The notes under the pieces were generated by a model. That model made no database searches, was not told where the DNA came from, and saw only the letters and a program-made list of their open reading frames with translations. From NCBI GenBank assembly GCA_043806595.1, contig JAZDGU010000029.1, positions 2,548 through 66,547 of the forward strand: 64,000 nt of DNA, given 5' to 3'. Source of the DNA: Candidatus Micrarchaeota archaeon (GTDB taxonomy: Archaea > Micrarchaeota > Micrarchaeia > Norongarragalinales > SBBD01). This document shows positions 16,677-57,224 of the stretch, one piece after another (position 1 is the first letter of the stretch; every line of letters starts with the position of its first letter). The position numbers and the translations under genes were made by a program.

Positions 16677-16697
16677 TGCAAGGGGCTAGAGGGCTTC

Positions 16698-17937: not shown

Positions 17938-18035
17938 AGGGTTCCTGAAGAAGACGGTCACAAAATTCGGCACCGGCGCCAAAGTCGACTGCCCTAAAGA
18001 ATATCTCGGAAAACCAGTTTACCTAGTGATCATCG

Positions 18036-19737: not shown

Positions 19738-19901
19738 CGAACTTATATGGATTTGGCCATATTTAATGCCGTCGTTTATGCAAATTTAAGCGCATAATTT
19801 GCTATCGTGCCGAATCCGGCACAGTGACGCCAATATTTTTTTCGGAGTCCAACCCACGGCCAGCAGCTCGGCCAGGGCGCCTGATGACTCACTCCCTTGC
19901 G

Positions 19902-33756: not shown

Positions 33757-34395
33757 CTACTGGCACCGCATTGTTGAAATCATGTAGTCGACGAGGTCCA
33801 AGTCCGGCACCAGCGGCTCGGAAATTGCGGCCACCAGCACAACCCAGTTTGAGGGGCACTGCAGGTACGCCTGCCTGATGAAGATCCTCTCGTTCCCGTC
33901 AACGGGATTCTGCATGGCCATGGAGAGCACGTAAACCGTCCTGCCGTCCTGCGGGTATGATGCGAGCGACGCGTTCTCCTCGGCCGCTGCCTCGCCAATC
34001 TTGACATCGCTCAGCTCGCCGGATTCAACCACGCGCACGTCAATGATTTCCGCGGAATACGGCGGGTGGTATGCGGAGAACCTCACGCGCACTGAAGGGA
34101 AGGGGTCGAGGTCGGCGAGGTAGCCCTGCAGATACCGCAGGGAGAAGCTGTAGTTCTGGTCGAAGTATTCCAGCGAACGCGGGTCGTACTCGGCGGCAAG
34201 CAGAGAGACTTGGGCGGCCCTCGCGGCCCCCGCGTCGGGCTTGATGAACGGGAGCGTGGAGACGAATTTCGGCGGCTGGGGCGCGAGGAAGAGAAAATAC
34301 GCGCCAACCGCGAGAGCCACAATTAGGATGATGGTCCAGAACGCGTTCGCGGACGGCGACACCCTCTTTTCCCTTGCCACGAATATTCCCTCCAC
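33757..34395 (-). CDS. hypothetical N-terminally anchored extracytoplasmic protein (212 aa)
   Basis: Single N-terminal TM helix (FWTIILIVALAVGAYFLFLA) then a soluble domain. Likely operon with 33367-33753. Confidence 0.5.
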   Translation of the reverse strand: MEGIFVAREKRVSPSANAFWTIILIVALAVGAYFLFLAPQPPKFVSTLPFIKPDAGAARAAQVSLLAAEYDPRSLEYFDQNYSFSLRYLQGYLADLDPFPSVRVRFSAYHPPYSAEIIDVRVVESGELSDVKIGEAAAEENASLASYPQDGRTVYVLSMAMQNPVDGNERIFIRQAYLQCPSNWVVLVAAISEPLVPDLDLVDYMISTMRCQ

Positions 34396-34452: not shown

Positions 34453-34728
34453 TCACCGCCGCAGGCCGAATGACTTGAACTTGCCCTCCGACTCGCCCCA
34501 TTCCGAAGCGATTGCCGCGACGCGGATGAAGCCGTCGTCCAATTTCACTGCGTCCAGGAACCGCTCGAGCTCCTCCCGTTCACCCTCGGCGCCGATTTCC
34601 ACGGTGCCGTCCTGCAGGTTCCGCACGAAGCCCGCGACCTTGAACCCCGCCGCGGCCCTAAGCACGAAATACCTGAAGCCGACACCCTGCACTTCGCCCG
34701 AGACGATGGCTCGCACCGATTTCAGCAT
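34453..34728 (-). CDS. acyP: acylphosphatase
   Basis: AIVSGEVQGVGFRYFV...GFVRNLQDGTVEI...G (acylphosphatase signatures 1 and 2). Start at MLKSVRAI. Confidence 0.75.
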   Translation of the reverse strand: MLKSVRAIVSGEVQGVGFRYFVLRAAAGFKVAGFVRNLQDGTVEIGAEGEREELERFLDAVKLDDGFIRVAAIASEWGESEGKFKSFGLRR

Positions 34729-34761: not shown

Positions 34762-34771
34762 GGTTTTAAAT
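34762..34771 (-). promoter_or_regulatory. TATA-like box (TTTAAAACC on minus strand) about 35 nt upstream of acyP; near-leaderless
   Basis: GGTTTTAAAT in a 41-bp divergent intergenic region. It also overlaps the nominal ATG of the plus-strand 34770 ORF, so that ORF probably starts at a downstream Met. Confidence 0.3.
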
Positions 34772-36266: not shown

Positions 36267-39200
36267 TCAGCCTGAAGTCGCGGCCTGGGCGCGCAACGCC
36301 TCGTTGAGAAACTCGAGCGCCTTCCGGTAGCCGGCGTCATTGCCCTGGTCGACGAGCTTTTCCGCCTCCTCGATGGACTTGACGACCTCCGGCGGGCACT
36401 GGTAACCGTCGCACCACTCCTTATAGCGCGCCAACAGGTTCGTCGCGGCTTCCGACAATGGAACAGGCGTCTGCGGGCCAGACTGCTCGTCCGACACCGG
36501 CACCCCAGCCCCCTCCAGCGCCGAATACCCGGGCAGTGCCGAAGACGTGACCACTGCTTCCGTGACGCTGAACGAGTCCGTCTGGACAGGCTTGGATGCC
36601 GCGAAGAAGGACTCCGCAATCGCCTGGGTGGCCTGCCTGCCGTTGAAAGCGGTAAGCAAATCATACTGGGGGACTCCGGCATACTCCGGGCCCTTGATGA
36701 AGTAGAAGCAGAACGGCTTCGTCCTCGGGCACAAGGCATTGGCGTCGACGCGGTTGAGGCAGACGGTCTTGCTTGCCTCGTCGCGCGTGCAAATCTCCTT
36801 GACCGACGTGACCGGGTCAGGGGCGTTGTCCAAGGTGGGGTTGTTGAAGACCACGACGTGGTTGCCGTAGCGGTAGTCCAACTCGGCGCGCACGGGCCTC
36901 AGGTCCGCGTAGGTGAGTATTGGTCCGAGAACGGCGACGATGGTCCCAACCAGCCGCGGGATCTTTGCGGGGGCGAACATGGACTTGAACCTGCTGCCGG
37001 CGTTCGTGAACTGCTTGAAGAAGCCTCCCGTGGTCTTCGCCGCCTTCGCGACGTCGTCGCCCTCGCTCTTGAGGACGTTCCGAGTGATGTCGATTATCGG
37101 TTTCTCGCTCTTGACGTTTCCTCCGGAAATCAGGGTCCGAGTTCTCGATAAAAGCCGGTCAGTCACTGTCGCTCCCCTTCCGAATTTTACATCGGCATCT
37201 GGAATTGAGGACATCGCGTTTTGCACCGTTCCCAGCCTAGGATACTTCGCGGTCATTTTGCGCAGGAAATCGTCGTACTGATCGGCAGGCACTATCGATT
37301 CCGCCTTGAGTATTCCCTTGAAGCTGAACGGCTTTCGGGTTCCTGTTGCGACATCCCCCCTTTGCCTCAAGTGCTCAAGCACGTGATCAAGTGTCTCTTC
37401 CTTCAAATATTGTGCCTCACTACTAATTCCAGCAGGCCATGGACCAGAGTGTAGGAAATTCCCGTTTCTAGGACCCTTGGCGGCAGTAAGCGAATCAACA
37501 ACATCGGCCCAGAGAGATGTCGAACCCGCCTTGGTGGATCTTGTGCCTCTCAACGAGGTCACTATCTGCTCCATGCGGCGCTGATACAAGGCGTTATCTA
37601 CGGGATTAAGCGACTTCTGCAGGGTGTCGTCGGCGAGCTTGTCGAAGAGTTCCTCCATCGCGTCGCGCCCGAGCATGTCGGACATGGCATCCATTATTAC
37701 TGGGTCGTTGGGTGGAATCTTCACCTTCACCAGTTCGTGGAAATCGGCGGCAGCCTTGCCCTTGGCGACAAGTTTCGTGATTGTCCTTGCGCTGAGGTCG
37801 CCGCCGAGGCCGAGGCGTTCTGCTTCCTTGATGCCATTGCGGAGGCCGATCGAGGCGTCGTAAGCCGAGCCCATCGATAGCCCGTAGTAGCGCGTCCCCT
37901 GTTCGGCCATCCACGCCGTGCTCCCCCAAGGCAGAATCGACCTGAACGCCTTCCCCGCTGGCAGCACAAGGTCGGGCTTGGCAACGACCTTGTCGTCTCC
38001 CTTGACGTACTCCACTCCCGAGAAAACCGCGCTGAAAGCCGTGAACGTGAGGAACTCGCTGGCAAATCTTGCGCCCAGGAACTTGGCGCTGAACGCCTGC
38101 CCGATGTTCCTCATAGTAGCGGCGCTGACGCCTTCGGCCGGCTTGAGGCCGAAGTTGGGGATGTACGCGGTAAACGTGTTAAGCAGGTAGTATGACGCGC
38201 CCTGCGCGCAGGCGTTCGCGGCGTCGCACGTGTTTGCGTCCTTGAATACGGCGTTTCCGACGTTGACGACGGAAGTCGAGCCGCACAATGCTAGCGTCGA
38301 AGCGAAGCCCATGACGGTTTCCTTGAGAGCGTAAGATACGCCGAAGGTCGCCATGATACCCTGGATGACCAAGTTTGGAGCGCTCGCGGCCATCACCGAA
38401 CCGGTGACCGCGCCCAACCGCTTGGTGCAGTAGCCTGCGTCGCTGTAGGACGGCGAATAGGAGAACAGGTTGGGACTGCTGCCATACAAGGCGGAGATCA
38501 AGCCCTGGGCGTTCCGCTCGTCCAACTCGCTGTTTCCGCCGCGGTAGGAACCAAAGTAAATCAGCTTGAACTTGTCGAATATGCTCTTGGCTTCCGCGGC
38601 GTCATTCGGCTTGCGGAGCTCGAAATAGGGCAGCTTGGTGTTCGCCTTGACCTGCTCGCGTCCGACGATGATTTGCGGGTCCTCGGCGGTAAGCAGGCCG
38701 GCGTTCGCGAGCGTCTCCTCGCACGCCTTGAACTGCGTCGGGTCGGCGGGATTGACGGCCATCTCTATTGACGCGGAGCGCAGCCACGCCTTCTTGTCCG
38801 GGAAGGAATTGGGGCTCTTGCAGAGGCCGAGGCGCGCAGTCACGATGTAGATGCCGCACGAGGATATGCCGCCCGAGGTGTCCCACTTGAAGTCTTCTAC
38901 GTACTTCTCGCCAGAAGCGTCGCGGAGCTCGCCGAGGCCCTCGTCAACGGACTTCTGCAGCTCGTTGAAAGAGACGCGCGTGTTCGCGCTCTGCACGATG
39001 ATGCTTTTATAGAAGCCGTTGCGGTTGTGGACGACGAGCCTCGGCTCGGACGGGTTGCAGAACGTCGAGATTTCCTTGGGGTATTTCTCGTCGAAGTAGA
39101 ACTTGAGGACGAACTCCTGCAGCTTCGCACCGAAGCCCTTGTAGGCGTCCTGCAGCTGTTCGCCGTTGCCCGTGCAGAAGTTCGTCTGGCACTGCATCGT

Positions 39201-42200
39201 CCCACCGGCGAGCGCGTCCAGCTTGCCCTGACTCTGGGCTCCAGTAGCGCCGGCATCGGACGCCAACAGCGCATCCGCGGCGTTTTCAGGAGTCCCGGCG
39301 CCGTCGGCAGGCGTCTCGAAGTAGAGGAAAACCCCGCCCGCGGTCTGGGCCGCGCCGCCTCCTGCGGGCTCGCCGGTGCCGCCCTCCTGCGCGGCCTTCT
39401 TGGCATCGTCCGTCGAGGCGAGCTCGGGCACCGGGACGGTGAGCGTCTGCTGTGGCACGAGGTCGCCCATGGGCGAGGACGGGAAGAACTCCTTGAGGGT
39501 TTCGTCGAGCGGCTTGCCGCCGACACCGACAATGACGGCGACCCTGCGCTGTTCGGGCTTGGTGGAAATCGCGCCGACGGAACGGATCTCGATGAAGCCT
39601 TCACCGGCCTTTTCCGCGGTGCATTCCGCGATGTAGCCGGTTCCGGCCTTCAGCGCCTGCGGGATGTCGCAGGATGCAAGAATGCTTCCGTCGCGGGATT
39701 TCGCGGCGTAGGAGAGCGAGAGGTCCTCGTCGTAGTTGTTCGTCATGGAGAGCCAGCGCTTGTGGCCGACGTCCTTGAAGACGAGCACCTGCGGCTCGCC
39801 GTTCTTGGCGTTGGTCTGGCCCTGCTGGTAGTTGACGTAGAAGCCGTTGAGCGCCGCGGACAGCTGCTTGCCGAGGTTGCCGAGGCACTTGCCGGTGTCC
39901 ACGAACGAAATCCTGATGGGCGCATCCTTGGCGGGCACCGTGCCCTGCCTTACCACGCCGAAGACGATCAGCTTGCCTTCCACGGACTGTTCCTCGAACG
40001 CCTCGGGCTTGAGGCAGCCGTACTCGTCGAGGAACTGCTCGGGGACGCCGACCTCGACCTCGAAACTCTGCCTCGGGCACGGGTCTTCGCCGGCGAGGTT
40101 GCGCTCGTTGACCCGCATGGAGACCAATTCCTTCAGCCAGGCGCCCTTCTTGGTGATGCTTTTCACCGCGTGGTCGAGGTCGCCCTTGGTAGAGACTATT
40201 GAGGGTCCCTCGAGCCATCCCTGCGGGCCGGAAAGCCGGAGGCCGGAGTTGAGCGGCGTGTTGATTTCCAACCGCACTTCCCTGTTGGAACTTCCCTCGT
40301 TCTTGACGCACAGCAGTTGCGACTGCGTGAGGTGGGAGTTCTCGTTGTTGAAAGTGAAGGTCAGGTCGCCCTCGAGAAGTATCGGGAAGGCCTCGTCGGT
40401 AATCAGCAGCATGCTGCCCTTCGTCTGCTTCTCGCACAGCACGAAGACGGTCTCCTCCTTCTTGGGGACGAGGACCTCGACGGGCGCGGCAGGGGCCTCC
40501 TGGCCGTCAGCAGCTGGTGCTGCAGCAGAGGTCAATATCCGGAAGGAAGGCGGGAAGATGACCTTGCGCACCTGCTTGAGCCCGTATTTCCGCCCGTTGC
40601 GGGAAATCTGGACGGAGAGGCAGGCTCCGTTGAAGTCGGTCTCGCGCGACACCTTGTCGACTTCCGAGGCGGTTGCGGGAAGGGTGTAGGTCACTTCCTC
40701 GCTGAAGATGCCCTTGATGCGGAAGCGTTCCTTGGGCTGGGCCATGTCCGTGGGGGCAATGCGCAACACGAAGAGCGTGTTGTCGGGGATGGTGAACTCG
40801 AGGGGGTCGGAGCCGAAGCTCTCTTCAGTGGTGCGCTTGGACATGATGCGCGTGGCATCGGCCTCGAAGCGGTCCAGCGTCTGTGGATCGGACAGGGTGA
40901 GGGTCACGGGGTTGGAAAGCCGTACTGATTCCATGGGCGAGTCCTTCCAGTAGTCGGTCTTGAGGCCGAGGAGGCTCTCCTGCGGCACGGACACCCCGAC
41001 GTCGAAAGGCAGGGTGAACTCGAAGTCCATGCCCTGCAGCATGGCGAGCTCGGGGTCGACGGTTGTGAAGGTTATTGGCTGGTTGGCGGCAAGCAGGACG
41101 TCGAACGAGGAGTCTTTCCTTTGTGTCTGGGGGGTGAAGCCGGCGGGGAAGGTCGCCTCGTAGCTCGTCGTGGCGATGCGGTTCTGGACGAGGTTCGACT
41201 CGCGGGGGAAGTGCCAGACGGAAGGCGCGGGGAAGGCGACGGTGAAGCTCTCCTGCCCGCGCACGGATTCGGAAGCCTTGAGGATCCTGCGGTCCATGGT
41301 GAGCATCGAGCCTGCGTGAACCTCGAGCTTGGCCGTGCCCTGCGGGGTCTCGGCGGAGGAGGACGCGCCTTCCGCGAGCATCCTGGCTCCGTTGGCGAAC
41401 TCGACGAGCTTGGCGTCGGAGGTCGGCACGTTCCTCACATTGACGTTGGGTGCCAGTGAGAGGCTGAAGCCAGCTGGAATCTCCTTCTCGGAGCCGTAGA
41501 CGCCGAACTCGGCTGGTCCGAGGGACATCTGCGTGTACGGAAGGACGTCAACGGAATAGCTGGAGTCGGGGAGCTTGAGGCCCTTGCGCGCGACACCGTA
41601 GAACGAGAGCTGGCTGCGGTCGTTGGAGATGGAGCTGACGGTGAAGCCGTCCTGCGCGACGCTCACCGAGACCTGCTCGTCCTTCTGGATTCGGAACATC
41701 ACGCGGAACGGCAGCATCATGCTGAGCCTGCCGTAGGGGTCCTGCTGGGCGAAAGGCGAGGGCATGCGGACGGCGCTGCCCGCGGGTATTGTTATCTTCT
41801 TGAAGTCGTTGGAGTCCGTGGAAATTACTGCGTCTGCGGGCAGGGAAATCGTCGTGCCGCTGCGGAACTGGAGCGCCTTGTTGCCGTTGAACTCGTCGCG
41901 CTTGACGCGCACGAACTCCTGCGGCAGGAATACGGCCTCCACGGGGAAGTAGACCTCGTAGGCGTCGCGGGAGGAGACGAAAGGCGTCAGCTGGATGCGG
42001 AAGGGCGTGTTGGAGGGAAGTGAAGCACGGCGCTGGCCGATGTCCCGCTGGCGCGTAAGCCGTATGCTTGCGGGGATGGTGATGTCGAAGTCCTCGACGG
42101 TCGCGGTCTGGAGGGAGCCCTCGCGCGTGAACTCGGTCTCGGGCTCGAAGTCCATGAACAGGCTGACGGGGAAGCGGAGCTCCCACGCGGTGTCGGCCAT

Positions 42201-45200
42201 CGGCTGCTGGTAGGGCTCGTAGCGGTTGGAGTAGCGCTGGTTGCTTGCGACTGCTATCTTGCGCGCCCACGCCGGCGGCACCTGGAAGAACGCGCCCGCC
42301 GGGACTATCGCGGCGAGCGAGCCCGCGGAGGTCTGCAGGGAGAATATGTAGGACGCCTGGTAGGGCGACTGCGCGAGATTCGAGAGGTCGCCGACCTGCG
42401 CGCCCTGCTCGAAGAGCATCGAGTCGCCGCTCGGCAGCTCGACGTACTCCGTTCCGTCGGGGTTCTCCTTGTGCAGGGTGCCCTTGGGGAACTGGAAGAC
42501 GAGCTCGACGGGAAGCGCGAGCCGCACTCCGTTCTTGACCTCGCCGACGTCGGGCAGGGCCTCGGTGGCGCTCACCTCGATTTCGTCGGACGAGCACGGC
42601 GACCCTCCGGCAGCCGTAGTCGCCTTGTAGGTGCCTGCCGCGGGGTAGCTGCATTTGATTGAACAGGAGCCTGTGGTGCCGGTGCAGTCCTTCGCGGTGA
42701 CGGTGCGACCGTTGCCGCAGTTGACTGGAAAGACGTTGGGGGCCTTGGGCAGGTCGTAGTAGCTTATCGTGAGGAGCGTGTTCTGGTTGCGGGAGAGCGT
42801 GGTCGGGTCCGCGGTTATGACGCACTGGGGCTCGGCCTCTGACAGCGGGTCCTCGTCTGGCTTGAGCACGTCGACCTGCACGGCACTGCATTGCGTGCCG
42901 GAGGCGGCTGCCTGGACGGCGTATGTGCCGTCCTGCTCGTAGTAGCACTTGGCCTGGCATGTTCCGGTGGTGCCGCTGCAGCCGGCGGCGTTCGCTGTCC
43001 TGCCGTTGCCGCAGTTGATGAGGAGCGCGTTGGGGGCGCGGGCGAGGTTGTAGTAGTTCGCCGTCACCATCGTGAACTCGCCTTCCTTTATCCTCGAGGG
43101 GTCGATGGTGAGCGCGCAGGAGGGGCGGGATGCCTGAACCTCCACGTATGCCGTCGTACATTCGACGCCGCCGGAAACCGCCAAAACCGTGAACTCGCCT
43201 GCCCGGGGATACCGGCATTTCGCCGAGCACGAGCCGGACTCGCCGGAGCATGAGACCGCGGAAACCTTCCTTCCGTTGCCGCACTCGATTTCGAAGGAGT
43301 TCGGGGAAGGCGAGAAGTCGGAGAAGGCGACGGTAACCGAGGATTCCTGGCCCTCGTCGAGGAGGGAAGGTTCGACGGTGAGGGCGCAGGACGGTTCGGG
43401 CAATGGCGTGGGGGTGACGGTGCCGCCCGAGCCGACGTCGCTGCAGCTGTCCGAGGAAGTGGCCGAATACGTCAGGGAGAGCTGGCGTTTGGAGGAGACG
43501 CCTTGCGTCGTTGCGATAAGCTTGAGCGTCGCGTTGCGCTCGTCCGGCTCGGTTTCGCAGGGGTCGACGGGCATCGCCTTGGCATAGACCCGAAACTCCG
43601 CTGAGCCGCCGCTGGGGACCACCACGGACAGGGGCTCGACGGAGAAAATCCTCGGGAGCGTGTTCTCCTGGTTGACGAGCAGCGGGTAAGGCGCGTCGTT
43701 GGTGACGGTTATCGACTGCATGTCGGACCTGACCTTCGGGGGCTGGAGGGCGAACTGCAGGGACTCGCTGGAGACCTGCCAGAGCGTGCCAAGCTCCTGC
43801 TGGACGAAAGAGGTCTTGACGGTGAACGGCACATATTCCTCCTGAGAGCTTCCGCCGAGCCTGGCGGAAATCCTGATGCGGCCGTTTATCTTCTCGGAGA
43901 CCGTCGAGGCGCGTTCGGCGATCTGGAGGACGGCATCGTCGATTTCGGCGGTCAGGCTCACGGTGCCGGACTGGCGCGCCTTCAACCGCAAGGAGAAGGT
44001 GTCGACGTTGATGCGGGTGTACTTTGGAATCTGCGAGAACTGCAGGGACATGGTCACGGGCACACTGTCCTCGAGGAGGTTGTTCACGGAGAACGCCTGC
44101 TGCTGGGGGTCGCGGGACTCGACGGCGAGGGCAAGGGCAGTTGAGTCGACTTCGACGAGCCTGACTGCGGAAACCAGGAGGGTGCCGCGCTTGGACTTGA
44201 AGCCCTCGGCGTCAATCTTGAAGGATACGTACCCCACGCTGACCGGCCTGATGCCCTCCGCGCGGTACGACGCGCTGCCGTCCCTGCCCTCGGTGTAGAC
44301 GCCCTCAACCTGCGCGCCCCTCAAGGCGTCCGAGCCGTCCCCGAGAACAACTGAAGCGTCCTTGACCGGGAGTCCGAGGGAGTCCGAGACCTTGAACGTT
44401 ACCACGCCGTCGGCAAGCGCCTGCAGCGACTTGGGCGAGTAGGAGACCTTCAGGTCGGGCTTGGTGCCGACGACGCGCGCCGCGAGATTGCGGGTCACCG
44501 TCGACTCGCCGAAGCGCGCCTGCAGCGTCAACGGGACGTCGTTTGAGAGGCGCTGAGCGCGGATTGAGAAGGTGCCGGCTGCGTTGTCATCGGAAGTGGT
44601 AAGCGATATCGCCTGCTCGTCGCCCTTGCGCGCACGCGCGCGGCTGTCACCGCTCACGCCCTCCTCGAGGGAAAGCGAGAGGTCGTCCGCGGGCGAGGTC
44701 AGCTCTATGACCGCGCCGCGTGGGGCCGCTAGCGTGAACTTGAGGGAGAACGTTTCGCCGGACTCCGCGGCGTAGTTGTCCGAGACCGTGCCGCCCCTGC
44801 CCTCGAAGTGAGACTCGAGGCAGACCTCGCCCTCGCAGATGCCGCCGAAGGAGAGGGGAAGCGACACGGAATTGGTTGCCGCGGAGAGGGCGTCGGGCCC
44901 GGCGACGGAGTCGACGGGGTCGCGGAGGATCTCGCGCGAGGTGTAGAACGCGGCGCGGTATTGGACGTTGACCGAGGCGCGGGAAAGCGGCCTGGTGCGT
45001 ATCTGAACGGACACCTCACGGGTGCCCTCGAAGGGCTGGAAGGTGAAGTCCGCGAACTTGTAGCCTTGCACGTCCTCGCCCGCCAGAAACAGGGCGGCGG
45101 CATTCCCGGCCGGGGTCGGCGTCGGGGTCGCGGTGACAGTCGCGGTAGGCTCCTCGCGCGAATACTCGGTGCCCTTGCGGACCACCGCGCTGCCGGAACC

Positions 45201-47240
45201 GTATCCGACTATTTCCGCGGTCTCGCTCTCGAGGGAGGAGTCCTCGTTCCCGATGCGGATGTGAGCCTGTATGCGGGAGACGGAGACCGGCGGCTTGGAC
45301 AGGACGAATCGCAAATTATAGACCGTCGAGGGGGAAAGAGAGGAGGCCTTGTTCCCGGTGAGGTCGTATGCCCCCTGGAACACGAGCTTTGCCCCCGAGA
45401 GCACGCCGACGGGCATCAGCTCGAACTCCTGCTTGTTGTTGACCCCGGGCTTGACCTCGAATTCCGAGGAAAGGAGGTCGTCGTAACCCTCGGCCTCGAC
45501 CCTGGCGGCATAGAAGCCCTCGAGGATCTTGAGGGAACACGCTCCCTTCGAGGTGGTGCAGGAGCCAGTTGCGGCAAACTCGCCCATCGAGGGCGAAAAC
45601 TCGACCCGGGCGCCGTCGATGGTCTTGTTCGTGAAATGGTCGCGGACCTTGACGGAGAGCTTGCCCGGCGCGGGCATGAGTAAGACGTGAAGGAGGTTGA
45701 CGTCCTCGGACTCGCCCGTTCCTTCGACAGTGAGGAGGACGGGCAGGCTGGAGCCGTTCCTTCCCGCGGCGCTCGCAACCGCGATGACCTCGTCGAGGGG
45801 CAGGCCGTCAAATCCCGTCGTGCCGTCCGCGCTCGTGTATTTCTCCGGGACCCCGGTCGGAAGGCCGTCCAAGTAGGAAAGGGATACGTATGCGGAGGGC
45901 ACGAACTCGCCGTTCTTGTCGGTGACCTCGACGACGGCCTTCGCCGAATTGTCCTTGCCGGCCTCCTCCAGCCTGACGGAATACGATTTGCCCTTCTCTG
46001 CGTCCATGATCCTGGCGGGAAGGAAGCCGTACTTGTAGACCGTGACGTAATATGAAGACCTTTCGAGGTCCTTGAAGACGGCGACGCCGTCCGAGGGTAT
46101 TTCCTCGCTTATCTTGGCGCCTTGCGGCTCATGCAGCCAGACCGAGGGATTGGAAAGCGAGCGGTTGTCGGAATCGAAGACGGCTACCGTAATCGAGCGG
46201 AGCTGTTCCTTTGAAACCTTCCTAAGAACCGCGTCGATGCCGGTCTCGGCCTGGACCTCGGTCTCCGCGGAAAGGAAGGCAGGATATCCTGCCGCCTTCA
46301 CGGAGACGTATATGGCCGTTCCTAGCTTGATTTCCTGCGAGGGCACGCCGCCGTCCGCGCCCGACTTGAGGTTCCGGAAGATCGTCTTGCCGGTGCCGGC
46401 CTCGCTTATTTCGATTGTGGCGTTCCCAATGCCCTCGCGGGTGTCCGAGTCGGTGACGCGGATGATAACGCGGCCGTTGACCGCGGACTGCTTCGGCGTC
46501 AGGCCGAAGGGCGGCAGGGTCTTGTCGCTTGAATCGACACGCACGTCGCGCGACTCGTCGTTGAAGCCCTCGGCCTGGACGACGACCTTGTAGGCGGTGT
46601 TCTGCTGGACGTCGAACGTGACAGTAGCCCCGGTCTTGGAATCGGCGATGGGAACGTATGTAGCGGTGTCGAAGAGCCAGAAGGTCGCGGACGAGGGCGG
46701 GGGCTCGACTGAAAGCGCGAGCGAAACAGTGGTCCTTGCGGGTTCGGGCGCGAGCCTGACGGTCACGAGGTTGTTCTCCGACTTCTTGCCGACGCTAACC
46801 CTCGAGCTGGCGCCCGAGTCGAAGGTGAGGGTGGAGCCGTCGAAGCCCGCGGCGGTGAGGGTGAGCTCGGCGCCTACGGGGGCCCCGGAGAAGTAGGCGA
46901 CGCCGTCGGAGCCCGTGGTGGCCTCCATGCGCTTCATGCCGTAGGCGTTCTCGGGGTCGGCGAGGAACACCCTCGCGTCTGACACCGGCAGGCCGTCGGA
47001 TGCGAGCAGCGTGACGGTGACGTCCGCGGTCTTGGGCTCGAATGCCTTCGTGCCGCCGAGCAGAAGGAAGGCGGCCCCGCCGAAAATCAGGAGAAGGATG
47101 AGCAGGAACACGGGCAGCGAGGGAAGGCCCTTCTCCTCGAGCCAGTCCGCGGCGTCCTTGAGGGGGAGGCCCTTGTCCGCGCACCATTCGAGAAAGCCCT
47201 GCCACTTCTCATTGACGGATTCGAAGAATTCCTCGAGCAT
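36267..47240 (-). CDS. giant membrane-anchored surface protein (3657 aa) with many beta-rich Ig/CarbopepD-reg-like repeats, three Cys-rich modules and a roughly 1000-aa non-repetitive C-terminal region
   Basis: Uninterrupted 10,974-nt ORF with host-like GC3. N-terminal signal-anchor LPSLPVFLLILLLIFGGAAFLLLGG. Start set at MLEEFF (47240) because the first in-frame codon (47417) would overlap the upstream Zn-ribbon ORF. Confidence 0.75.
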   Translation of the reverse strand: MLEEFFESVNEKWQGFLEWCADKGLPLKDAADWLEEKGLPSLPVFLLILLLIFGGAAFLLLGGTKAFEPKTADVTVTLLASDGLPVSDARVFLADPENAYGMKRMEATTGSDGVAYFSGAPVGAELTLTAAGFDGSTLTFDSGASSRVSVGKKSENNLVTVRLAPEPARTTVSLALSVEPPPSSATFWLFDTATYVPIADSKTGATVTFDVQQNTAYKVVVQAEGFNDESRDVRVDSSDKTLPPFGLTPKQSAVNGRVIIRVTDSDTREGIGNATIEISEAGTGKTIFRNLKSGADGGVPSQEIKLGTAIYVSVKAAGYPAFLSAETEVQAETGIDAVLRKVSKEQLRSITVAVFDSDNRSLSNPSVWLHEPQGAKISEEIPSDGVAVFKDLERSSYYVTVYKYGFLPARIMDAEKGKSYSVRLEEAGKDNSAKAVVEVTDKNGEFVPSAYVSLSYLDGLPTGVPEKYTSADGTTGFDGLPLDEVIAVASAAGRNGSSLPVLLTVEGTGESEDVNLLHVLLMPAPGKLSVKVRDHFTNKTIDGARVEFSPSMGEFAATGSCTTSKGACSLKILEGFYAARVEAEGYDDLLSSEFEVKPGVNNKQEFELMPVGVLSGAKLVFQGAYDLTGNKASSLSPSTVYNLRFVLSKPPVSVSRIQAHIRIGNEDSSLESETAEIVGYGSGSAVVRKGTEYSREEPTATVTATPTPTPAGNAAALFLAGEDVQGYKFADFTFQPFEGTREVSVQIRTRPLSRASVNVQYRAAFYTSREILRDPVDSVAGPDALSAATNSVSLPLSFGGICEGEVCLESHFEGRGGTVSDNYAAESGETFSLKFTLAAPRGAVIELTSPADDLSLSLEEGVSGDSRARARKGDEQAISLTTSDDNAAGTFSIRAQRLSNDVPLTLQARFGESTVTRNLAARVVGTKPDLKVSYSPKSLQALADGVVTFKVSDSLGLPVKDASVVLGDGSDALRGAQVEGVYTEGRDGSASYRAEGIRPVSVGYVSFKIDAEGFKSKRGTLLVSAVRLVEVDSTALALAVESRDPQQQAFSVNNLLEDSVPVTMSLQFSQIPKYTRINVDTFSLRLKARQSGTVSLTAEIDDAVLQIAERASTVSEKINGRIRISARLGGSSQEEYVPFTVKTSFVQQELGTLWQVSSESLQFALQPPKVRSDMQSITVTNDAPYPLLVNQENTLPRIFSVEPLSVVVPSGGSAEFRVYAKAMPVDPCETEPDERNATLKLIATTQGVSSKRQLSLTYSATSSDSCSDVGSGGTVTPTPLPEPSCALTVEPSLLDEGQESSVTVAFSDFSPSPNSFEIECGNGRKVSAVSCSGESGSCSAKCRYPRAGEFTVLAVSGGVECTTAYVEVQASRPSCALTIDPSRIKEGEFTMVTANYYNLARAPNALLINCGNGRTANAAGCSGTTGTCQAKCYYEQDGTYAVQAAASGTQCSAVQVDVLKPDEDPLSEAEPQCVITADPTTLSRNQNTLLTISYYDLPKAPNVFPVNCGNGRTVTAKDCTGTTGSCSIKCSYPAAGTYKATTAAGGSPCSSDEIEVSATEALPDVGEVKNGVRLALPVELVFQFPKGTLHKENPDGTEYVELPSGDSMLFEQGAQVGDLSNLAQSPYQASYIFSLQTSAGSLAAIVPAGAFFQVPPAWARKIAVASNQRYSNRYEPYQQPMADTAWELRFPVSLFMDFEPETEFTREGSLQTATVEDFDITIPASIRLTRQRDIGQRRASLPSNTPFRIQLTPFVSSRDAYEVYFPVEAVFLPQEFVRVKRDEFNGNKALQFRSGTTISLPADAVISTDSNDFKKITIPAGSAVRMPSPFAQQDPYGRLSMMLPFRVMFRIQKDEQVSVSVAQDGFTVSSISNDRSQLSFYGVARKGLKLPDSSYSVDVLPYTQMSLGPAEFGVYGSEKEIPAGFSLSLAPNVNVRNVPTSDAKLVEFANGARMLAEGASSSAETPQGTAKLEVHAGSMLTMDRRILKASESVRGQESFTVAFPAPSVWHFPRESNLVQNRIATTSYEATFPAGFTPQTQRKDSSFDVLLAANQPITFTTVDPELAMLQGMDFEFTLPFDVGVSVPQESLLGLKTDYWKDSPMESVRLSNPVTLTLSDPQTLDRFEADATRIMSKRTTEESFGSDPLEFTIPDNTLFVLRIAPTDMAQPKERFRIKGIFSEEVTYTLPATASEVDKVSRETDFNGACLSVQISRNGRKYGLKQVRKVIFPPSFRILTSAAAPAADGQEAPAAPVEVLVPKKEETVFVLCEKQTKGSMLLITDEAFPILLEGDLTFTFNNENSHLTQSQLLCVKNEGSSNREVRLEINTPLNSGLRLSGPQGWLEGPSIVSTKGDLDHAVKSITKKGAWLKELVSMRVNERNLAGEDPCPRQSFEVEVGVPEQFLDEYGCLKPEAFEEQSVEGKLIVFGVVRQGTVPAKDAPIRISFVDTGKCLGNLGKQLSAALNGFYVNYQQGQTNAKNGEPQVLVFKDVGHKRWLSMTNNYDEDLSLSYAAKSRDGSILASCDIPQALKAGTGYIAECTAEKAGEGFIEIRSVGAISTKPEQRRVAVIVGVGGKPLDETLKEFFPSSPMGDLVPQQTLTVPVPELASTDDAKKAAQEGGTGEPAGGGAAQTAGGVFLYFETPADGAGTPENAADALLASDAGATGAQSQGKLDALAGGTMQCQTNFCTGNGEQLQDAYKGFGAKLQEFVLKFYFDEKYPKEISTFCNPSEPRLVVHNRNGFYKSIIVQSANTRVSFNELQKSVDEGLGELRDASGEKYVEDFKWDTSGGISSCGIYIVTARLGLCKSPNSFPDKKAWLRSASIEMAVNPADPTQFKACEETLANAGLLTAEDPQIIVGREQVKANTKLPYFELRKPNDAAEAKSIFDKFKLIYFGSYRGGNSELDERNAQGLISALYGSSPNLFSYSPSYSDAGYCTKRLGAVTGSVMAASAPNLVIQGIMATFGVSYALKETVMGFASTLALCGSTSVVNVGNAVFKDANTCDAANACAQGASYYLLNTFTAYIPNFGLKPAEGVSAATMRNIGQAFSAKFLGARFASEFLTFTAFSAVFSGVEYVKGDDKVVAKPDLVLPAGKAFRSILPWGSTAWMAEQGTRYYGLSMGSAYDASIGLRNGIKEAERLGLGGDLSARTITKLVAKGKAAADFHELVKVKIPPNDPVIMDAMSDMLGRDAMEELFDKLADDTLQKSLNPVDNALYQRRMEQIVTSLRGTRSTKAGSTSLWADVVDSLTAAKGPRNGNFLHSGPWPAGISSEAQYLKEETLDHVLEHLRQRGDVATGTRKPFSFKGILKAESIVPADQYDDFLRKMTAKYPRLGTVQNAMSSIPDADVKFGRGATVTDRLLSRTRTLISGGNVKSEKPIIDITRNVLKSEGDDVAKAAKTTGGFFKQFTNAGSRFKSMFAPAKIPRLVGTIVAVLGPILTYADLRPVRAELDYRYGNHVVVFNNPTLDNAPDPVTSVKEICTRDEASKTVCLNRVDANALCPRTKPFCFYFIKGPEYAGVPQYDLLTAFNGRQATQAIAESFFAASKPVQTDSFSVTEAVVTSSALPGYSALEGAGVPVSDEQSGPQTPVPLSEAATNLLARYKEWCDGYQCPPEVVKSIEEAEKLVDQGNDAGYRKALEFLNEALRAQAATSG
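42570..43400 (-). repeat. three tandem Cys-rich modules of about 85-95 aa (about 270 nt each) inside the giant gene
   Basis: Protein repeats SCALTVEPS...IECGNGRKVSAVSCSGESGSCSAKCRYPRAGEF, SCALTIDPS...INCGNGRTANAAGCSGTTGTCQAKCYYEQDGTY and CVITADPT...VNCGNGRTVTAKDCTGTTGSCSIKCSYPAAGTY. Consensus C..(T/I).P......I.CGNGR....C.G..G.C..KC.Y...G.Y. Confidence 0.6.
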
Positions 47241-47320
47241 GCGGATTATCGGAAAGATAGGGCGAAAACACTTATTTAAATACCATCGTAGCGGCCAAAT
47301 GGAAAAAATTCGCGTCCTGC

Positions 47321-47656
47321 TCAGCGGACCCTCCGCTGGAGAGGCAGGACCGAACCGCACTTCCTGCAGACCTTCTCCTTGTGCTTCCAGTTCAGTTCGA
47401 AGTCCGTGCCTCCGCACTCGGGGCAGGCGCGTATCTCGCTCTTGTGGAAGTCCATCCAGCCCTCCTTGCCGTCGCGGCCGGCGAAGGACTGGTGGGAGAA
47501 GGCGACGCGCTCGCGGCGGTCGGTCAGCTGGGGCTTGTCGTCATCGAACTTCTTCTTCTCGACGGCGGGCTTGACCTTGCGGCTGGAGCACCGCGGGCAG
47601 ATGACCGCATCCTCGGCCTCCCAGTGCAGCGAACAATTGTCGCAGGCGTATTTCAT
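47321..47656 (-). CDS. double zinc-ribbon protein (111 aa)
   Basis: CDNC...CPRC and CPEC...CRKC pairs. 80 nt upstream of the giant gene on the same strand. Confidence 0.5.
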   Translation of the reverse strand: MKYACDNCSLHWEAEDAVICPRCSSRKVKPAVEKKKFDDDKPQLTDRRERVAFSHQSFAGRDGKEGWMDFHKSEIRACPECGGTDFELNWKHKEKVCRKCGSVLPLQRRVR

Positions 47657-47701
47657 CGGAACCACGATTGTTTGGCATGGATAAAATATTATTGCTTGCG
47701 G

Positions 47702-48694
47702 TCAGCCCCCCGCGGCGGAGATCTCGCGGATGAACCGCTTCAGCCCCGAGGCGAACTTCACCCGGGGAGAAAAACGCAAGAGACGGCGCGCCTTGCCTAT
47801 GTCGTACTGGCGGTGCTCGGAAAGGGTATGAAGGTATTCCTCGGGGAAGCGTGTTTTCCTGCCGAGGAGCCGCGATCTCCACGCGTCCAGCCTCGCGGCG
47901 AGAAGCGCCATCCGCTTTGAAACGTGCTTTTTCGGGGGTTCGACGGCCAGCTCGTTGGCCACCGCCTCGAACAGCTCCCGCTGGGTGAACGACTCTCCCG
48001 AGGTTACGATGAAGTCCTCGCGCACTGCGCGCGTGCGCATCGCAAGCAGTACCGCACGGGCTAGGTCGTCGACGTGGATGAAAGAGACCGAGTTCGCACC
48101 GTCGCCGACGAGCCTCATCCTTCCCGCACGAATGCGCCCGACGACCTGCCGGAAGCCCTCCCGGAAGCCCTTCCCGTAGACAATCGGCGGCCTCAGAATC
48201 ACGTATTCGAGGGGGGAGGCGCGGAGCGCGTTCTCCGCGGCGAGCTTGCTCCTGCCGTAGGCGTTCGCCGGAAGGGGGAGGGTGCTTTCGCTGATATGCT
48301 CGCCGGGCCCGAGGCTGACGCCCCGGTAGATGGAAGTGGAGGACACGAATACGAACCGGCGCACGCCCTCGGCCACGGCGGCGTTCGCCAGCTGGGAGGT
48401 CGCGAGGTAGTTGTTCCTCACGAGCTCGTCATCCGGCGCGGAATAATCGACCTGCCCGGCGAGGTGGAGCACCGCGGACGCGCCACGGCATGCGGCGCGC
48501 AACCTCTGGAAGTTGGAGAAGTCCGAAATGTCGACGCCTTCGGCGCGCACGCCCATCGCCTTGAGGCGAGACACGCCCTGGCCCGGAAGGCAGAGCGCGC
48601 GCACGCGGACCTTGCCGCGCACGAGCGCCTGCACGACGGCAGTACCGAGCCTGCCGTCGGCCCCGGTCACCAGCACTTCGCCTTTCGCGGCCAT
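47702..48694 (-). CDS. NAD-dependent epimerase/dehydratase (extended SDR)
   Basis: Rossmann VLVTGADGRLGTAVV, catalytic YGRSK, 330 aa. Confidence 0.8.
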   Translation of the reverse strand: MAAKGEVLVTGADGRLGTAVVQALVRGKVRVRALCLPGQGVSRLKAMGVRAEGVDISDFSNFQRLRAACRGASAVLHLAGQVDYSAPDDELVRNNYLATSQLANAAVAEGVRRFVFVSSTSIYRGVSLGPGEHISESTLPLPANAYGRSKLAAENALRASPLEYVILRPPIVYGKGFREGFRQVVGRIRAGRMRLVGDGANSVSFIHVDDLARAVLLAMRTRAVREDFIVTSGESFTQRELFEAVANELAVEPPKKHVSKRMALLAARLDAWRSRLLGRKTRFPEEYLHTLSEHRQYDIGKARRLLRFSPRVKFASGLKRFIREISAAGG

Positions 48695-57079: not shown

Positions 57080-57224
57080 AAGTGAACTACTGCGGCGTAT
57101 TAAAAAACGATGCCTGCGGCGAGGGGTCCGGACACCGTCCGGCAGATGCCCCGCGCGCCCGAAACCCCGTCTCCCGCCGCGAACGGTTTTTAAGGGATTC
57201 CCCGCTAATGCACGCATGTTCCTC

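What the first reader, a model, noticed from the sequence alone, without database searches (positions are those of the whole stretch)
36267..47240. Giant 3657-aa membrane-anchored repeat protein
A single uninterrupted 10,974-nt ORF, about 17% of the window, has host-like GC and GC3, so it is unlikely to be a chance open frame. The architecture is:
- a short cytoplasmic N-terminus and one signal-anchor helix;
- a long series of beta-rich repeats of about 90-100 aa, resembling carboxypeptidase-regulatory-like or Ig-like sandwiches;
- three Cys-rich modules;
- a roughly 1000-aa C-terminal region without repeats.
Proteins of this size are rare in archaea. In small-genome or episymbiotic archaea they are usually adhesins or host-interaction proteins. 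Synteny also points to a surface-remodelling locus: a Zn-ribbon gene lies just upstream, a second 1357-aa surface protein lies 6 kb away on the same strand, and two codon-atypical Arg-rich genes converge on its 3' end.
Basis: partly seen in the sequence, partly recalled or inferred. Interest (0 to 1): 0.8.

Follow-up and report, generated by a model that had tools for sequence, protein, structure and literature searches.

The report
Giant sugar-free surface fibre, Micrarchaeota
This is a real 3657-residue membrane-anchored surface protein of a tiny groundwater archaeon (Micrarchaeota), one of a rare family of long fibre-like proteins that have almost no sugar-attachment sites and probably tether the cell to a partner or surface.

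Summary
The ORF is real: window 36267-47240, minus strand, 3657 aa, GC3 0.83. Its ATG start is backed by a TATA-like box and by homologues.

It is not an orphan. A full HMMER scan found five other proteins of 2843-3453 aa, all from Candidatus Micrarchaeota MAGs. They are collinear over the whole length at 33-47% identity and sit in the same neighbourhood: epimerase, Zn-ribbon, giant, acylphosphatase, small TM protein.

Architecture:
- a conserved 43-aa cytoplasmic motif and one strong TM helix (aa 44-62);
- about 2500 aa of beta-sandwich domains, of CarboxypepD_reg type and then Ig/ASH/MG-like;
- three 92-aa six-cysteine modules that match no Pfam family;
- a Pro/Ala/Gly-rich linker;
- a roughly 980-aa mostly helical head with no known fold, containing a low-charge, small-residue-rich segment.

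Twenty-four invariant cysteines run to residue 3615, so the chain is extracellular.

Unexpectedly, the family has almost no N-glycosylation sequons (17 observed, about 121 expected), while neighbouring NosD-type surface proteins are enriched.

The best reading is a long-reach surface tether or adhesin. That function is inferred. It is not a SPEARE, RTX-adhesin, alpha-2-macroglobulin or S-layer protein. The neighbours are mostly housekeeping genes, so the "surface-remodelling locus" claim is only weakly supported.

The parts
36267..47240 (-). Complete CDS of the giant protein (3657 aa plus stop)
   Evidence: The ORF is shown. GC3 is 0.83. It is identical to NCBI MFH1106925.1. It is collinear with P0005-P0009.
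47273..47280 (-). TATA-like box TTTAAATA about 33 nt upstream of the ATG; putative own promoter
   Evidence: Read directly from the sequence. Its function is inferred.
47112..47240 (-). aa 1-43: conserved acidic cytoplasmic N-terminal motif, W..FL.W..(E/D)KGLP....LEEKG(I/L)P(S/A)(L/M)P
   Evidence: The core of the motif is conserved in every family member examined, with many invariant positions (W13 F16 L17 W19 K23 G24 L25 P26 E35 K37 G38 P40) in the three-sequence alignment A1. It matches no Pfam family.
47055..47111 (-). aa 44-62: signal-anchor transmembrane helix
   Evidence: Kyte-Doolittle 2.86 and Hessa dG -4.4. This is the only clear TM helix in the protein. The family-averaged KD is 2.67.
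43404..47054 (-). aa 63-1279: proximal stalk of diverged beta-sandwich domains (CarboxypepD_reg/prealbumin-like, PEGA/Big_1-like and others)
   Evidence: Pfam hits. An iterated HMM finds five copies. The region is 31-56% identical to P0002 and P0003.
42561..43403 (-). aa 1280-1560: three 92-aa modules, each with six invariant Cys (C..P..Y..PN..CGNG..C.G..G.C...C.Y..C)
   Evidence: Shown. The copy number is variable: 3 in P0004 and P0005, 1 in P0006, 0 in P0007-P0009. Seven copies occur in the unrelated surface protein P0001. There is no Pfam or PDB match.
39522..42560 (-). aa 1561-2573: distal stalk of about 10 Ig/ASH/MG-like beta-sandwich domains; the best-conserved part of the family
   Evidence: The AF2 model has pLDDT 67.6 and is all-beta. 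Foldseek hits are to tandem Ig/ASH/MG arrays. Conservation is 31-54% by 100-aa block, with many invariant positions.
39201..39521 (-). aa 2574-2680: Pro/Ala/Gly-rich, low-complexity linker predicted to be disordered
   Evidence: pLDDT is below 35 in both models. Length and sequence vary among homologues.
38439..39200 (-). aa 2681-2934: first head domain (alpha/beta) with invariant CQTNFC, CGIYI and other Cys
   Evidence: Invariant Cys are C2684, C2689, C2728, C2795, C2807 and C2840. pLDDT is 60-80 locally. There is no fold match.
38001..38438 (-). aa 2935-3080: low-charge helical segment rich in Gly/Ala/Ser/Thr, with four invariant Cys; marginally hydrophobic
   Evidence: Charged residues are 7-10% here against 20-23% overall. 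GAST content is 43-48%. Small-xxx-small motifs are enriched 2-5 fold. Hessa dG is +4.4 here and +0.8 to +3.4 in homologues. The family KD peak is 1.61 at aa 2948-2966.
36981..38000 (-). aa 3081-3420: variable, helical region that looks like coiled coil in homologues; the least conserved part
   Evidence: Identity is 15-19%. Helices are predicted at low confidence. A PDB profile search gives only weak helical or coiled-coil matches.
36606..36980 (-). aa 3421-3545: conserved amphipathic helix plus the motif (L/F)(F/T)(H/Y).(D/E)(V/L)RPV.A.LDYR, followed by a beta-rich domain with four Cys
   Evidence: Invariant residues are R3448, P3449, V3450, L3454, D3455, Y3456, H3461, C3484, C3494, C3504 and C3511. 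The region is also present in fragments P0010-P0012.
36270..36605 (-). aa 3546-3657: C-terminal tail ending in a helical hairpin with the invariant pair C3610 and C3615-P3616
   Evidence: pLDDT is 76-88 for the hairpin.
47321..47665 (-). Upstream 114-aa double Zn-ribbon protein (TFIIB-type Zn ribbon); a conserved neighbour
   Evidence: Zn_Ribbon_TF scores 30.3 bits against a cut-off of 29. It is 60-63% identical to the corresponding neighbours in L004 and L007.
47702..48694 (-). NAD-dependent epimerase/dehydratase; a conserved neighbour
   Evidence: Pfam hit. Conserved synteny.
34456..34728 (-). Acylphosphatase; a conserved downstream neighbour
   Evidence: tblastn gives 53-56% identity to L004 and L007.
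33757..34395 (-). 212-aa protein with an N-terminal TM helix and no known family; a conserved downstream neighbour
   Evidence: It is 35-38% identical to the corresponding genes in L004 and L007. It has no Pfam hit.

Best explanation
The gene encodes a type-II (N-in) single-pass membrane protein of a Candidatus Micrarchaeota (DPANN) archaeon that forms a very long cell-surface fibre.

**Proposed structure**
- A conserved 43-residue cytoplasmic motif and one TM helix fix it in the cell's own membrane.
- About 25 beta-sandwich domains (aa 63-2573) form a stalk. At roughly 4 nm per domain the stalk would be on the order of 100 nm, enough to reach well beyond the S-layer. This length is inferred.
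- The stalk includes three optional disulphide-stapled modules.
- A flexible Pro/Ala/Gly-rich linker then carries a roughly 980-residue, disulphide-bonded, mostly helical head.

**Proposed function**
- The most likely job is long-range tethering or adhesion of the small cell to a partner cell or a surface, with the head as the business end.
- The low-charge, small-residue-rich helices of the head (aa 2935-3080) are candidates for contacting or conditionally inserting into a lipid or protein surface.

**Shown**
- The gene is real and belongs to a conserved family.
- The domain architecture.
- A single strong TM helix.
- Extracellular location, from the invariant Cys and the sequon purge.
- Absence of known catalytic or toxin domains.

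**Inferred**
- The extended geometry.
- The adhesion or tether function.
- Any membrane activity of the head.
For: - **Real gene and family.** Full-length collinear homologues of 2843-3453 aa exist in other Micrarchaeota MAGs.
- **Anchor.** Only aa 44-62 is a clear TM helix (dG -4.4). The C-terminal hydrophobic stretches are marginal (+4.4 here).
- **Stalk.** CarboxypepD_reg, Big_1, SpaA, bMG3 and fn3 hits occur across the family. The AF2 model of aa 1560-2640 is all-beta with about 10 sandwich domains. Its Foldseek hits are to tandem Ig/ASH/MG arrays, with E down to 2e-7.
- **Extracellular location.** There are 24 invariant Cys outside the optional modules, the last at C3610 and C3615. The six-Cys module also occurs in P0001, between a signal peptide and a C-terminal anchor.
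- **Sequon purge.** N-x-S/T is purged (17 observed against 121 expected; the reversed motif occurs 119 times). Cytoplasmic controls are neutral and neighbouring NosD surface proteins are enriched. Selection of this kind makes sense only for a chain that meets the oligosaccharyltransferase.
- **Precedent.** DPANN and other episymbionts use giant surface proteins for host contact. Examples are SPEARE proteins (PMC6642349) and the discussion in bioRxiv 10.1101/2025.05.02.651781.
- **Nearby surface proteins.** Other large surface proteins (NosD or beta-helix type) lie nearby in the window and in L008.
Against: - No adhesion domain of known ligand specificity was found: no laminin-G, lectin, VWA or integrin-like domain.
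- The family evolves at an ordinary rate and is syntenic among housekeeping genes. That is more typical of a structural core component than of an arms-race adhesin.
- The head has no confident model (pLDDT 45) and no fold match, so its role is open.
- No expression, localisation or host data exist.
- The host, if there is one, is unknown.
- The sequon purge is not a known hallmark of adhesins.
Confidence: 0.5

Rival explanations
1. Envelope scaffold. The protein is a structural component of the cell's own envelope rather than a host-directed adhesin. Examples would be a spacer or ruler between membrane and S-layer, an S-layer anchor, or a laterally packed sheath.
For: - The protein is conserved over its whole length at the same rate as neighbouring ordinary genes (41-48% against 36-66%).
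- It occupies one conserved genomic position beside core genes.
- Its domains are non-repetitive and collinear.
- The purge of glycosylation sites along the chain would fit tight protein-protein packing.
- How the Micrarchaeum S-layer is anchored is stated to be unknown (PMC8975820).
Against: - About 25 beta-sandwich domains plus a 980-aa head are far longer than an archaeal pseudo-periplasm needs.
- The family is confined to a few groundwater Micrarchaeota: 6 clusters among 1.84 billion representatives, and 2 loci in JGI metagenomes. It is therefore not a general Micrarchaeota envelope part.
- The optional Cys modules and the variable head region argue for an exposed part.
Confidence: 0.25
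2. Protein anchored at both ends. The hydrophobic stretches at aa 2948-3073 and 3427-3447 are real TM helices. The ectodomain would then be a giant loop, and the variable helical region (aa 3081-3420) would be cytoplasmic. This would be analogous in layout to YhgE/Pip/EsaA-type proteins and might serve as a conduit or receptor complex.
For: - Hydrophobic peaks recur at the same positions in all homologues. Examples are KD 2.15 and dG +1.5 in P0006, and dG +0.8 in P0009.
- A scheme with TM helices at about aa 2948-2966, 2975-2993, 3055-3073 and 3427-3447 keeps the invariant Cys on the outside, apart from C2986, which would lie within the second of these helices. This is my own inference.
Against: - In the window's own protein the best C-terminal stretch has dG +4.4, which is far from a stop-transfer sequence.
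- C2986 is invariant and lies inside one of the putative helices.
- There is no Pfam match to YhgE/Pip or any membrane-protein family.
- The AF2 model gives no membrane-like bundle, although the model is poor.
Confidence: 0.1
3. Artefact. The ORF is an assembly chimera, a fusion of several genes caused by sequencing errors, or a decaying pseudogene.
For: The source is a MAG, and no read data were available here.
Against: - The frame is uninterrupted with host codon bias.
- Five independent homologues of similar length are collinear end to end.
- One homologue is identical in three independent assemblies.
- Invariant Cys and motifs occur throughout the chain.
Confidence: 0.01

Closest known systems
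SPEARE proteins of Nanohaloarchaeota (Hamm et al. 2019, PMC6642349)
   Same: - It is a giant protein (over 3000 aa) of a DPANN archaeon.
- It has one TM anchor with most of the chain outside the cell.
- It is thought to act at the cell surface or host interface.
- One SPEARE (3315 aa) is also anchored at its N-terminus.
   Different: - There is no serine-protease, laminin-G or type III restriction-endonuclease domain, and no BC-toxin-like region.
- The cytoplasmic part is only 43 aa.
- No sequence relationship was found.
- The phylum differs (Micrarchaeota).
Bacterial giant repeat adhesins (LapA / MpIBP / Bap type)
   Same: The overall logic is shared. One end is anchored at the cell. A long extender of Ig-like beta-sandwich domains follows. 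A distinct distal region is presumed to do the binding.
   Different: - The extender domains are highly diverged and each is unique, not near-identical tandem repeats.
- There are no RTX nonapeptides.
- The anchor is a Sec-type signal-anchor helix in an archaeal membrane, not a T1SS retention module.
Tandem ASH/Ig/MG-domain proteins (hydin/CFAP-type ciliary proteins, alpha-2-macroglobulin/complement)
   Same: These are the best structural matches to the aa 1560-2640 model, as strings of PapD/Ig/MG-like sandwiches. Faint bMG3 hits occur in two homologues.
   Different: - The resemblance is in fold and array only: 6-12% identity and TM-scores of about 0.1 over the whole model.
- There is no thioester CxEQ motif.
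- There is no functional link.
P0001, a 1866-aa archaeal surface protein from ENA ERZ27247117 (uncharacterised)
   Same: - It shares the 92-aa six-Cys module (seven copies; E 8e-85).
- It is also poor in sequons (3 observed, 13.4 expected).
   Different: - The framework is otherwise unrelated.
- It has an N-terminal signal peptide and a C-terminal TM anchor.
- It has neither the family head nor the N-terminal motif.
YhgE/Pip/EsaA-type membrane proteins
   Same: It has an N-terminal TM helix, a large ectodomain, and hydrophobic stretches near the C-terminus.
   Different: - The C-terminal stretches are marginal as TM helices.
- The ectodomain is beta-sandwich, not a helical hairpin.
- There is no family match.

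Membership tests
CarboxypepD_reg (PF13620) domain-containing proteins | At least one domain scoring above the Pfam gathering threshold | tested here: met
   It scores 68.3 bits against a cut-off of 32.3, with the best stretch at aa 74-149. Five of six family members match. This names a fold in the first third only. It does not name a function.
SPEARE proteins | Serine protease domain | tested here: not met
   No peptidase family matches at E<=1 in the protein, or at E<=0.01 in any homologue.
SPEARE proteins | Laminin-G or other named adhesion domains in the ectodomain | tested here: not met
   There is no laminin-G hit. Only generic beta-sandwich families match.
SPEARE proteins | Cytoplasmic domain resembling a type III restriction endonuclease (the most conserved SPEARE part, PMC6642349) | tested here: not met
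   The cytoplasmic part is only 43 aa, and no ResIII or helicase hit was found.
RTX / Bap / LapA-type giant adhesins | Long array of near-identical tandem repeats | tested here: not met
   There are no DNA tandem repeats. Self-comparison finds only the three Cys modules at 40-45% identity.
RTX / Bap / LapA-type giant adhesins | RTX GGxGxD calcium-binding nonapeptides | tested here: not met
   The motif does not occur.
Alpha-2-macroglobulin / thioester proteins | Thioester motif CxEQ | tested here: not met
   The motif does not occur.
Alpha-2-macroglobulin / thioester proteins | MG-domain array | tested here: inconclusive
   bMG3 matches in 2 of 6 homologues (best E 1.4e-6). Foldseek matches to A2M, C5 and CD109 have probability of only 0.2-0.4.
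Archaeal S-layer glycoproteins | S-layer family domain | tested here: not met
   No S-layer Pfam or NCBIfam family matches.
Archaeal S-layer glycoproteins | Many N-glycosylation sequons | tested here: not met
   Sequons are about 7-fold depleted instead.
Archaeal S-layer glycoproteins | Forms a 2-D lattice and is highly abundant | not testable with these tools
   This needs microscopy or proteomics.
YhgE/Pip/EsaA-type proteins | Cluster of true TM helices at the C-terminus | tested here: inconclusive
   The best Hessa dG is +4.4 in this protein and +0.8 to +3.4 in homologues. No dedicated TM predictor was available.
YhgE/Pip/EsaA-type proteins | Family HMM match | tested here: not met
   None was found.
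The new Micrarchaeota giant-protein family (P0004-P0009) | The family features: the N-terminal W..FL.W..KGLP..EEKG.P motif with a TM helix; a collinear stalk; head motifs CQTNFC, CGIYI and RPV.A.LDYR; and a C-terminal CxxxxCP | tested here: met
   Alignments A1, A2 and A4. Motif scan.

The most novel reading that the evidence does not exclude
The family could be a dedicated cell-cell contact device of a groundwater Micrarchaeota clade. In this reading a stalk of roughly 100 nm is kept free of glycans so that it can pack or thread through the S-layer or the partner's envelope. The stalk delivers a disulphide-stapled helical head. The head's low-charge Gly/Ala/Ser-rich helices would insert conditionally into the partner's membrane. 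That would make it a candidate for the long-sought protein that initiates DPANN-host membrane contact or cytoplasmic bridges.
Probability: 0.12. Interest if true: 0.85.

Novelty: new variant of a known kind. Interest (0 to 1): 0.55.

Why it matters
DPANN archaea are thought to live attached to other cells, but the molecules that make the contact are almost unknown outside Nanohaloarchaeota (SPEARE proteins) and Nanoarchaeota.

This work defines a separate giant-protein family that is clade-restricted and conserved in its full architecture. The results give:
- exact domain boundaries;
- an uncharacterised six-cysteine module;
- a roughly 980-residue head with no known fold.

They also give a striking and easily testable property. 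N-glycosylation sites are almost eliminated, while the neighbouring surface proteins are rich in them.

This provides concrete targets for cryo-ET, proteomics and liposome assays. If the sequon purge generalises, it also offers a simple sequence signature for finding functionally similar proteins in other archaea.

If the protein is only an envelope scaffold, it is still a useful marker of this Micrarchaeota clade, but of modest general interest.

Tried and rejected
1. **Word-index homology searches.** The full-length query timed out. The C-terminal 1098 aa gave no hit. The middle 1280 aa hit only P0001, through the Cys modules. These suggested a 2100-aa orphan region. That was a sensitivity artefact, overturned by the exhaustive HMMER scan.
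2. **Exact look-ups.** Look-ups of the giant, EF-1alpha and the epimerase in the contig index found nothing.
3. **Collection scans.**
   - Genome contigs returned only a truncated 56%-identity N-terminal fragment.
   - The first metagenome scan, with N-terminal patterns, returned nothing.
   - The second returned two loci.
   - Viral contigs returned none, so a viral or mobile origin is rejected.
4. **Family libraries.** PHROGs, NCBIfam and PDB sequence searches with the protein and with family profiles (A2, A3, A5) gave nothing meaningful.
5. **AF2 of the head.** With a 10-sequence alignment, pLDDT was 45 and Foldseek found no match with E<0.1. No fold assignment was attempted from it.
7. **Motif checks.** No thioester, RTX, LPxTG, PGF-CTERM or HExxH motif is present.
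8. **Arg-rich pair downstream.** I tested whether the two genes are homologous to the analogous pair in L004. No significant similarity was found, so the question stays open.
9. **S-layer paper.** The Micrarchaeum S-layer paper (PMC8904052) is not held.
Full report
**1. Observation**

The window has about 62% G+C. Real genes show GC3 of about 0.8-0.9. On the minus strand a single frame is open from 47540 to the stop at 36267. The first ATG is at 47240 and gives 3657 aa. GC by codon position is 0.59/0.47/0.83, the same as SufB, CarB, SecY and PolD in the window.

The ATG start is supported by three results:
- Homologues begin at the same residue.
- An AT-rich TTTAAATA box lies about 33 nt upstream.
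- The upstream gene ends at 47321.

- One strong TM helix at aa 44-62 (KD 2.86, Hessa dG -4.4).
- CarboxypepD_reg-type sandwiches (68.3 bits; five copies by iterated HMM).
- Three Cys-rich modules at aa 1280-1560.
- A non-repetitive C-terminal third.

The stalk domains are diverged domains, not sequence repeats. There is no DNA tandem repeat and almost no self-similarity.

**2. Organism and context**

The window carries archaeal core genes: aEF-1alpha, S10, eIF2-gamma, SecY, both PolD subunits, Kae1/TsaD, and the SUF and CarAB operons. The protein is identical to NCBI MFH1106925.1 from a Candidatus Micrarchaeota MAG. All relatives also come from Micrarchaeota MAGs. At least one relative locus comes from the Hainich groundwater metagenome.

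**3. Not an orphan**

The word-index searches suggested that aa 1560-3657 had no relatives. The exhaustive HMMER scan of 1.84 billion representatives with aa 2560-3657 overturned this. It found the protein itself, five further giants and four fragments:

| Protein | Length (aa) | E-value |
|---|---|---|
| P0005 | 2843 (N-terminally truncated) | 5e-93 |
| P0006 | 3453 | 1.5e-92 |
| P0007 | 3243 | 1e-41 |
| P0008 | 3347 | 6e-36 |
| P0009 | 3417 | 2e-35 |

Aligned, the six are collinear from the first to the last residue at 33-47% identity overall. Conservation varies by region:

| Region (aa) | Mean identity per 100-aa block |
|---|---|
| 1-2900 | 27-55% (mostly 31-55%) |
| 2900-3400 | 15-22% |
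| 3400-3500 | 34% |

The Cys modules are optional: 3 copies in P0004 and P0005, 1 in P0006, and 0 in P0007-P0009. The family is rare. It forms six clusters in that library, only two loci in the JGI metagenome collection, and none in viral contigs.

**4. Synteny**

In three divergent genomes (the window, L004 and L007) the order is NAD-epimerase, 112-114-aa double Zn-ribbon protein, giant, acylphosphatase, then a roughly 210-aa protein with an N-terminal TM helix. The Zn-ribbon proteins are 60-63% identical. In L007 two small genes sit between the Zn-ribbon gene and the giant.

In the window and L004 the wider block is also shared: a T2SSE ATPase, two small paralogous TM proteins, CarA and CarB on one side, and S10 and EF-1alpha on the other.

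The giant's identity to its L004 orthologue is 41% overall and 48% over the first 1400 aa. This lies inside the range of the neighbouring ordinary genes:

| Gene | Identity to L004 orthologue |
|---|---|
| 205-aa TM protein | 36% |
| T2SSE | 42% |
| Epimerase | 46% |
| Acylphosphatase | 56% |
| CarB | 65% |
| EF-1alpha | 85% |

The gene is therefore vertically inherited and under ordinary purifying selection. It is not a hypervariable locus. "Surface-remodelling locus" is not a good description.

The 1357-aa NosD/PQQ/Big_2 protein is an insertion relative to L004. Two NosD or beta-helix giants do sit directly upstream of the homologue in L008.

**5. Stalk**

With a six-sequence alignment, AF2 models aa 1560-2640 at mean pLDDT 67.6, with many 10-residue blocks at 75-89. 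The model is an all-beta string of about ten sandwich domains, followed by a disordered Pro/Ala/Gly-rich linker.

Foldseek against the PDB returns tandem ASH/Ig/MG arrays:
- ciliary central-apparatus proteins, with E down to 2e-7;
- the alpha-2-macroglobulin and complement family;
- titin, and chaperone-usher pilins.

This is a resemblance in fold class only. Together with the N-terminal third, which gives Pfam hits to CarboxypepD_reg, Big_1, SpaA, PEGA, bMG3 and fn3 across the family, and the three Cys modules, the ectodomain contains roughly 25 sandwich domains. If extended at about 4 nm per domain, this is on the order of 100 nm. That figure is an inference, not a measurement.

**6. Cys module**

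Twelve copies from four proteins align over 92 residues with six invariant Cys, plus P12, Y27, P34-N35, the CGNG motif, G57 and Y65. No Pfam family matches beyond noise (Big_1 and PKD at E>=0.02), and no PDB sequence matches.

The module also occurs seven times in P0001, an unrelated 1866-aa protein with a signal peptide and a C-terminal anchor. It is therefore a mobile extracellular module, probably Ig-like and triply disulphide-bonded. The fold and the disulphides are inferred.

**7. Head (aa 2681-3657)**

The AF2 model is poor (pLDDT 45) and mostly helical. The better-predicted pieces are at aa 2690-2830 and in the terminal hairpin. No Foldseek hit had E below 0.1, and no PDB or Pfam sequence hit was found.

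Conserved landmarks are CQTNFC, CGIYI, four invariant Cys at 2938, 2986, 3005 and 3011, the motif RPV.A.LDYR..H, four Cys at 3484-3511, and CxxxxCP at 3610-3616.

The segment aa 2935-3080 keeps its composition rather than its sequence in all members:
- charged residues are 7-10%, against 20-23% for the whole proteins;
- Gly/Ala/Ser/Thr are 43-48%;
- small-xxx-small-xxx-small motifs are enriched 2-5 fold;
- the family-averaged hydropathy peak is 1.61.

On the Hessa scale these stretches are marginal: +4.4 kcal/mol in this protein and +0.8 to +3.4 in homologues. The N-terminal anchor scores -3 to -4.4. I therefore favour a translocated head with marginally hydrophobic helices over a second membrane anchor. 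I keep the latter as a rival because no dedicated topology predictor was available.

**8. Extracellular location and the sequon purge**

Outside the optional modules, 24 Cys are invariant among homologues of 33-47% identity, up to residue 3615. This argues for disulphides and hence an extracellular chain.

The N-glycosylation sequon N-x-S/T (x not P) is almost absent from the family:

| Protein | Observed | Expected from shuffles |
|---|---|---|
| P0004 | 5 | 19.8 |
| P0005 | 5 | 15.1 |
| P0006 | 4 | 21.4 |
| P0007 | 1 | 23.0 |
| P0008 | 2 | 18.3 |
| P0009 | 0 | 23.4 |
| Total | 17 | 121 |

The reversed motif S/T-x-N occurs 119 times, which is at expectation. In the window's protein the five remaining sequons all lie before aa 1237.

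Controls:
- Twelve pooled cytoplasmic proteins of the window have 22 observed against 19.9 expected.
- The neighbouring NosD surface protein has 32 against 17.3.
- In L008 the adjacent NosD giant has 46 against 29.9, while the family member next to it has 0 against 23.2.

Neutral evolution would give the expected number. A seven-fold deficit means two things. The chain is exposed to the oligosaccharyltransferase, and glycans on it are selected against. I cannot say why. Possible reasons are tight lateral packing, passage through S-layer pores or a partner's envelope, or a binding surface along the whole fibre (note 4).

**9. Interpretation**

The best-supported model is a type-II anchored, very long surface fibre with a distal head, acting as a tether or adhesin (confidence 0.5). 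It fits the following:
- the architecture;
- the DPANN lifestyle;
- the SPEARE precedent in Nanohaloarchaeota, described there as extracytoplasmic with one TM anchor and proposed to mediate attachment and pore formation (PMC6642349);
- the general association of giant surface proteins with episymbionts (bioRxiv 10.1101/2025.05.02.651781).

This protein is not a SPEARE. It has no protease, laminin-G or restriction-endonuclease domain. It is not an RTX-type adhesin, because it lacks tandem repeats and RTX motifs. It is not a thioester protein, because it has no CxEQ. It does not look like an S-layer glycoprotein, because no S-layer family matches and sequons are depleted.

The ordinary evolutionary rate and the core-like synteny keep an envelope-scaffold role alive (0.25). 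A topology with both ends anchored remains possible (0.1). Artefact is excluded for practical purposes (0.01).

**10. Novelty and score**

Giant surface proteins in DPANN are an expected class, and this sequence is already deposited under a generic domain name. What is new:
- recognition of a collinear, syntenic family restricted to Micrarchaeota;
- its domain map;
- an unclassified six-Cys module;
- a roughly 980-aa head with no known fold;
- the strong purge of glycosylation sites, in contrast to neighbouring surface proteins.

I rate it a new variant of a known kind, with interest 0.55. The boldest reading still allowed is a glycan-free fibre that delivers a conditionally membrane-inserting head for DPANN-host contact. 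I give that about 0.12 probability. It would be highly interesting if true.

Noticed in passing
window 34770-35621(+) and 35625-36242(+); L004 20374-21057(+) and 21068-21871(+): Two adjacent Arg-rich (14% R) helical ORFs converge on the giant's stop codon. Their GC3 is 0.59 and 0.68, against about 0.83 for the host, and they have no Pfam or PHROG match. The syntenic genome L004 has an analogous pair at the same position (Arg-rich from its sequence, with GC3 0.36/0.44 against 0.55-0.59 for that genome's other genes), but on the giant's own strand. No significant sequence similarity links the two pairs. L007 has no such pair. The pair may be a fast-evolving or mobile two-gene cassette.
   Followed up: partly
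whole CDS 36267-47240(-), and homologues P0005-P0009: N-x-S/T sequons are about 7-fold depleted in the whole family (17 observed, 121 expected). The reversed motif is at expectation. Neighbouring NosD surface proteins are enriched, and cytoplasmic proteins are neutral. The reason is unexplained.
   Followed up: yes
window 53006-57319(-): A NosD/PQQ_2/Big_2 surface protein. The long ORF starts with an Arg-rich stretch. The likely true start is M81 (MARRLAAILFLLASVAC, which resembles a signal peptide or lipobox), giving 1357 aa. Sequons are enriched (32 observed, 17.3 expected). It is inserted between CarA and the small TM genes relative to L004. Similar NosD or beta-helix giants flank the homologue in L008.
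   Followed up: partly
window 57216-57884(+), 57902-58474(+), 58555-59664(+): Two paralogous small membrane proteins without Pfam matches lie next to a T2SSE (PilB/FlaI-type) ATPase. The trio is conserved with L004 at 35-49% identity. It may be a minimal pilus or secretion module about 10 kb from the giant gene.
   Followed up: partly
window 16000-20000, especially 18036-19361(+): A low-GC patch (0.53-0.56, against about 0.62 elsewhere) contains an IS66-family transposase. It is probably a recent insertion.
   Followed up: no
window 9864-13652(+): A protein of about 1200 aa combines an Upf1-like AAA_11/AAA_12 helicase with a C-terminal REase_MTES_1575 nuclease domain. This looks like a defence-type or DNA-processing architecture.
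   Followed up: no
window 47112-47240(-), and the N-termini of all family members: The 43-aa cytoplasmic N-terminus carries a tandem (E/D)KG(L/I)P motif with invariant Trp and Phe. It is acidic (net charge about -6) and among the best-conserved parts of the protein. It could be a docking site for a cytoplasmic partner, for example the conserved Zn-ribbon neighbour. This idea was not tested.
   Followed up: partly
L003 2418-5816 (P0003, Candidatus Norongarragalinales MAG): The most distant N-terminal relative (31% identity, cut off by the contig end) has a cupredoxin-like domain inserted in the stalk. It is not sequon-depleted (5 observed, 3.6 expected).
   Followed up: no
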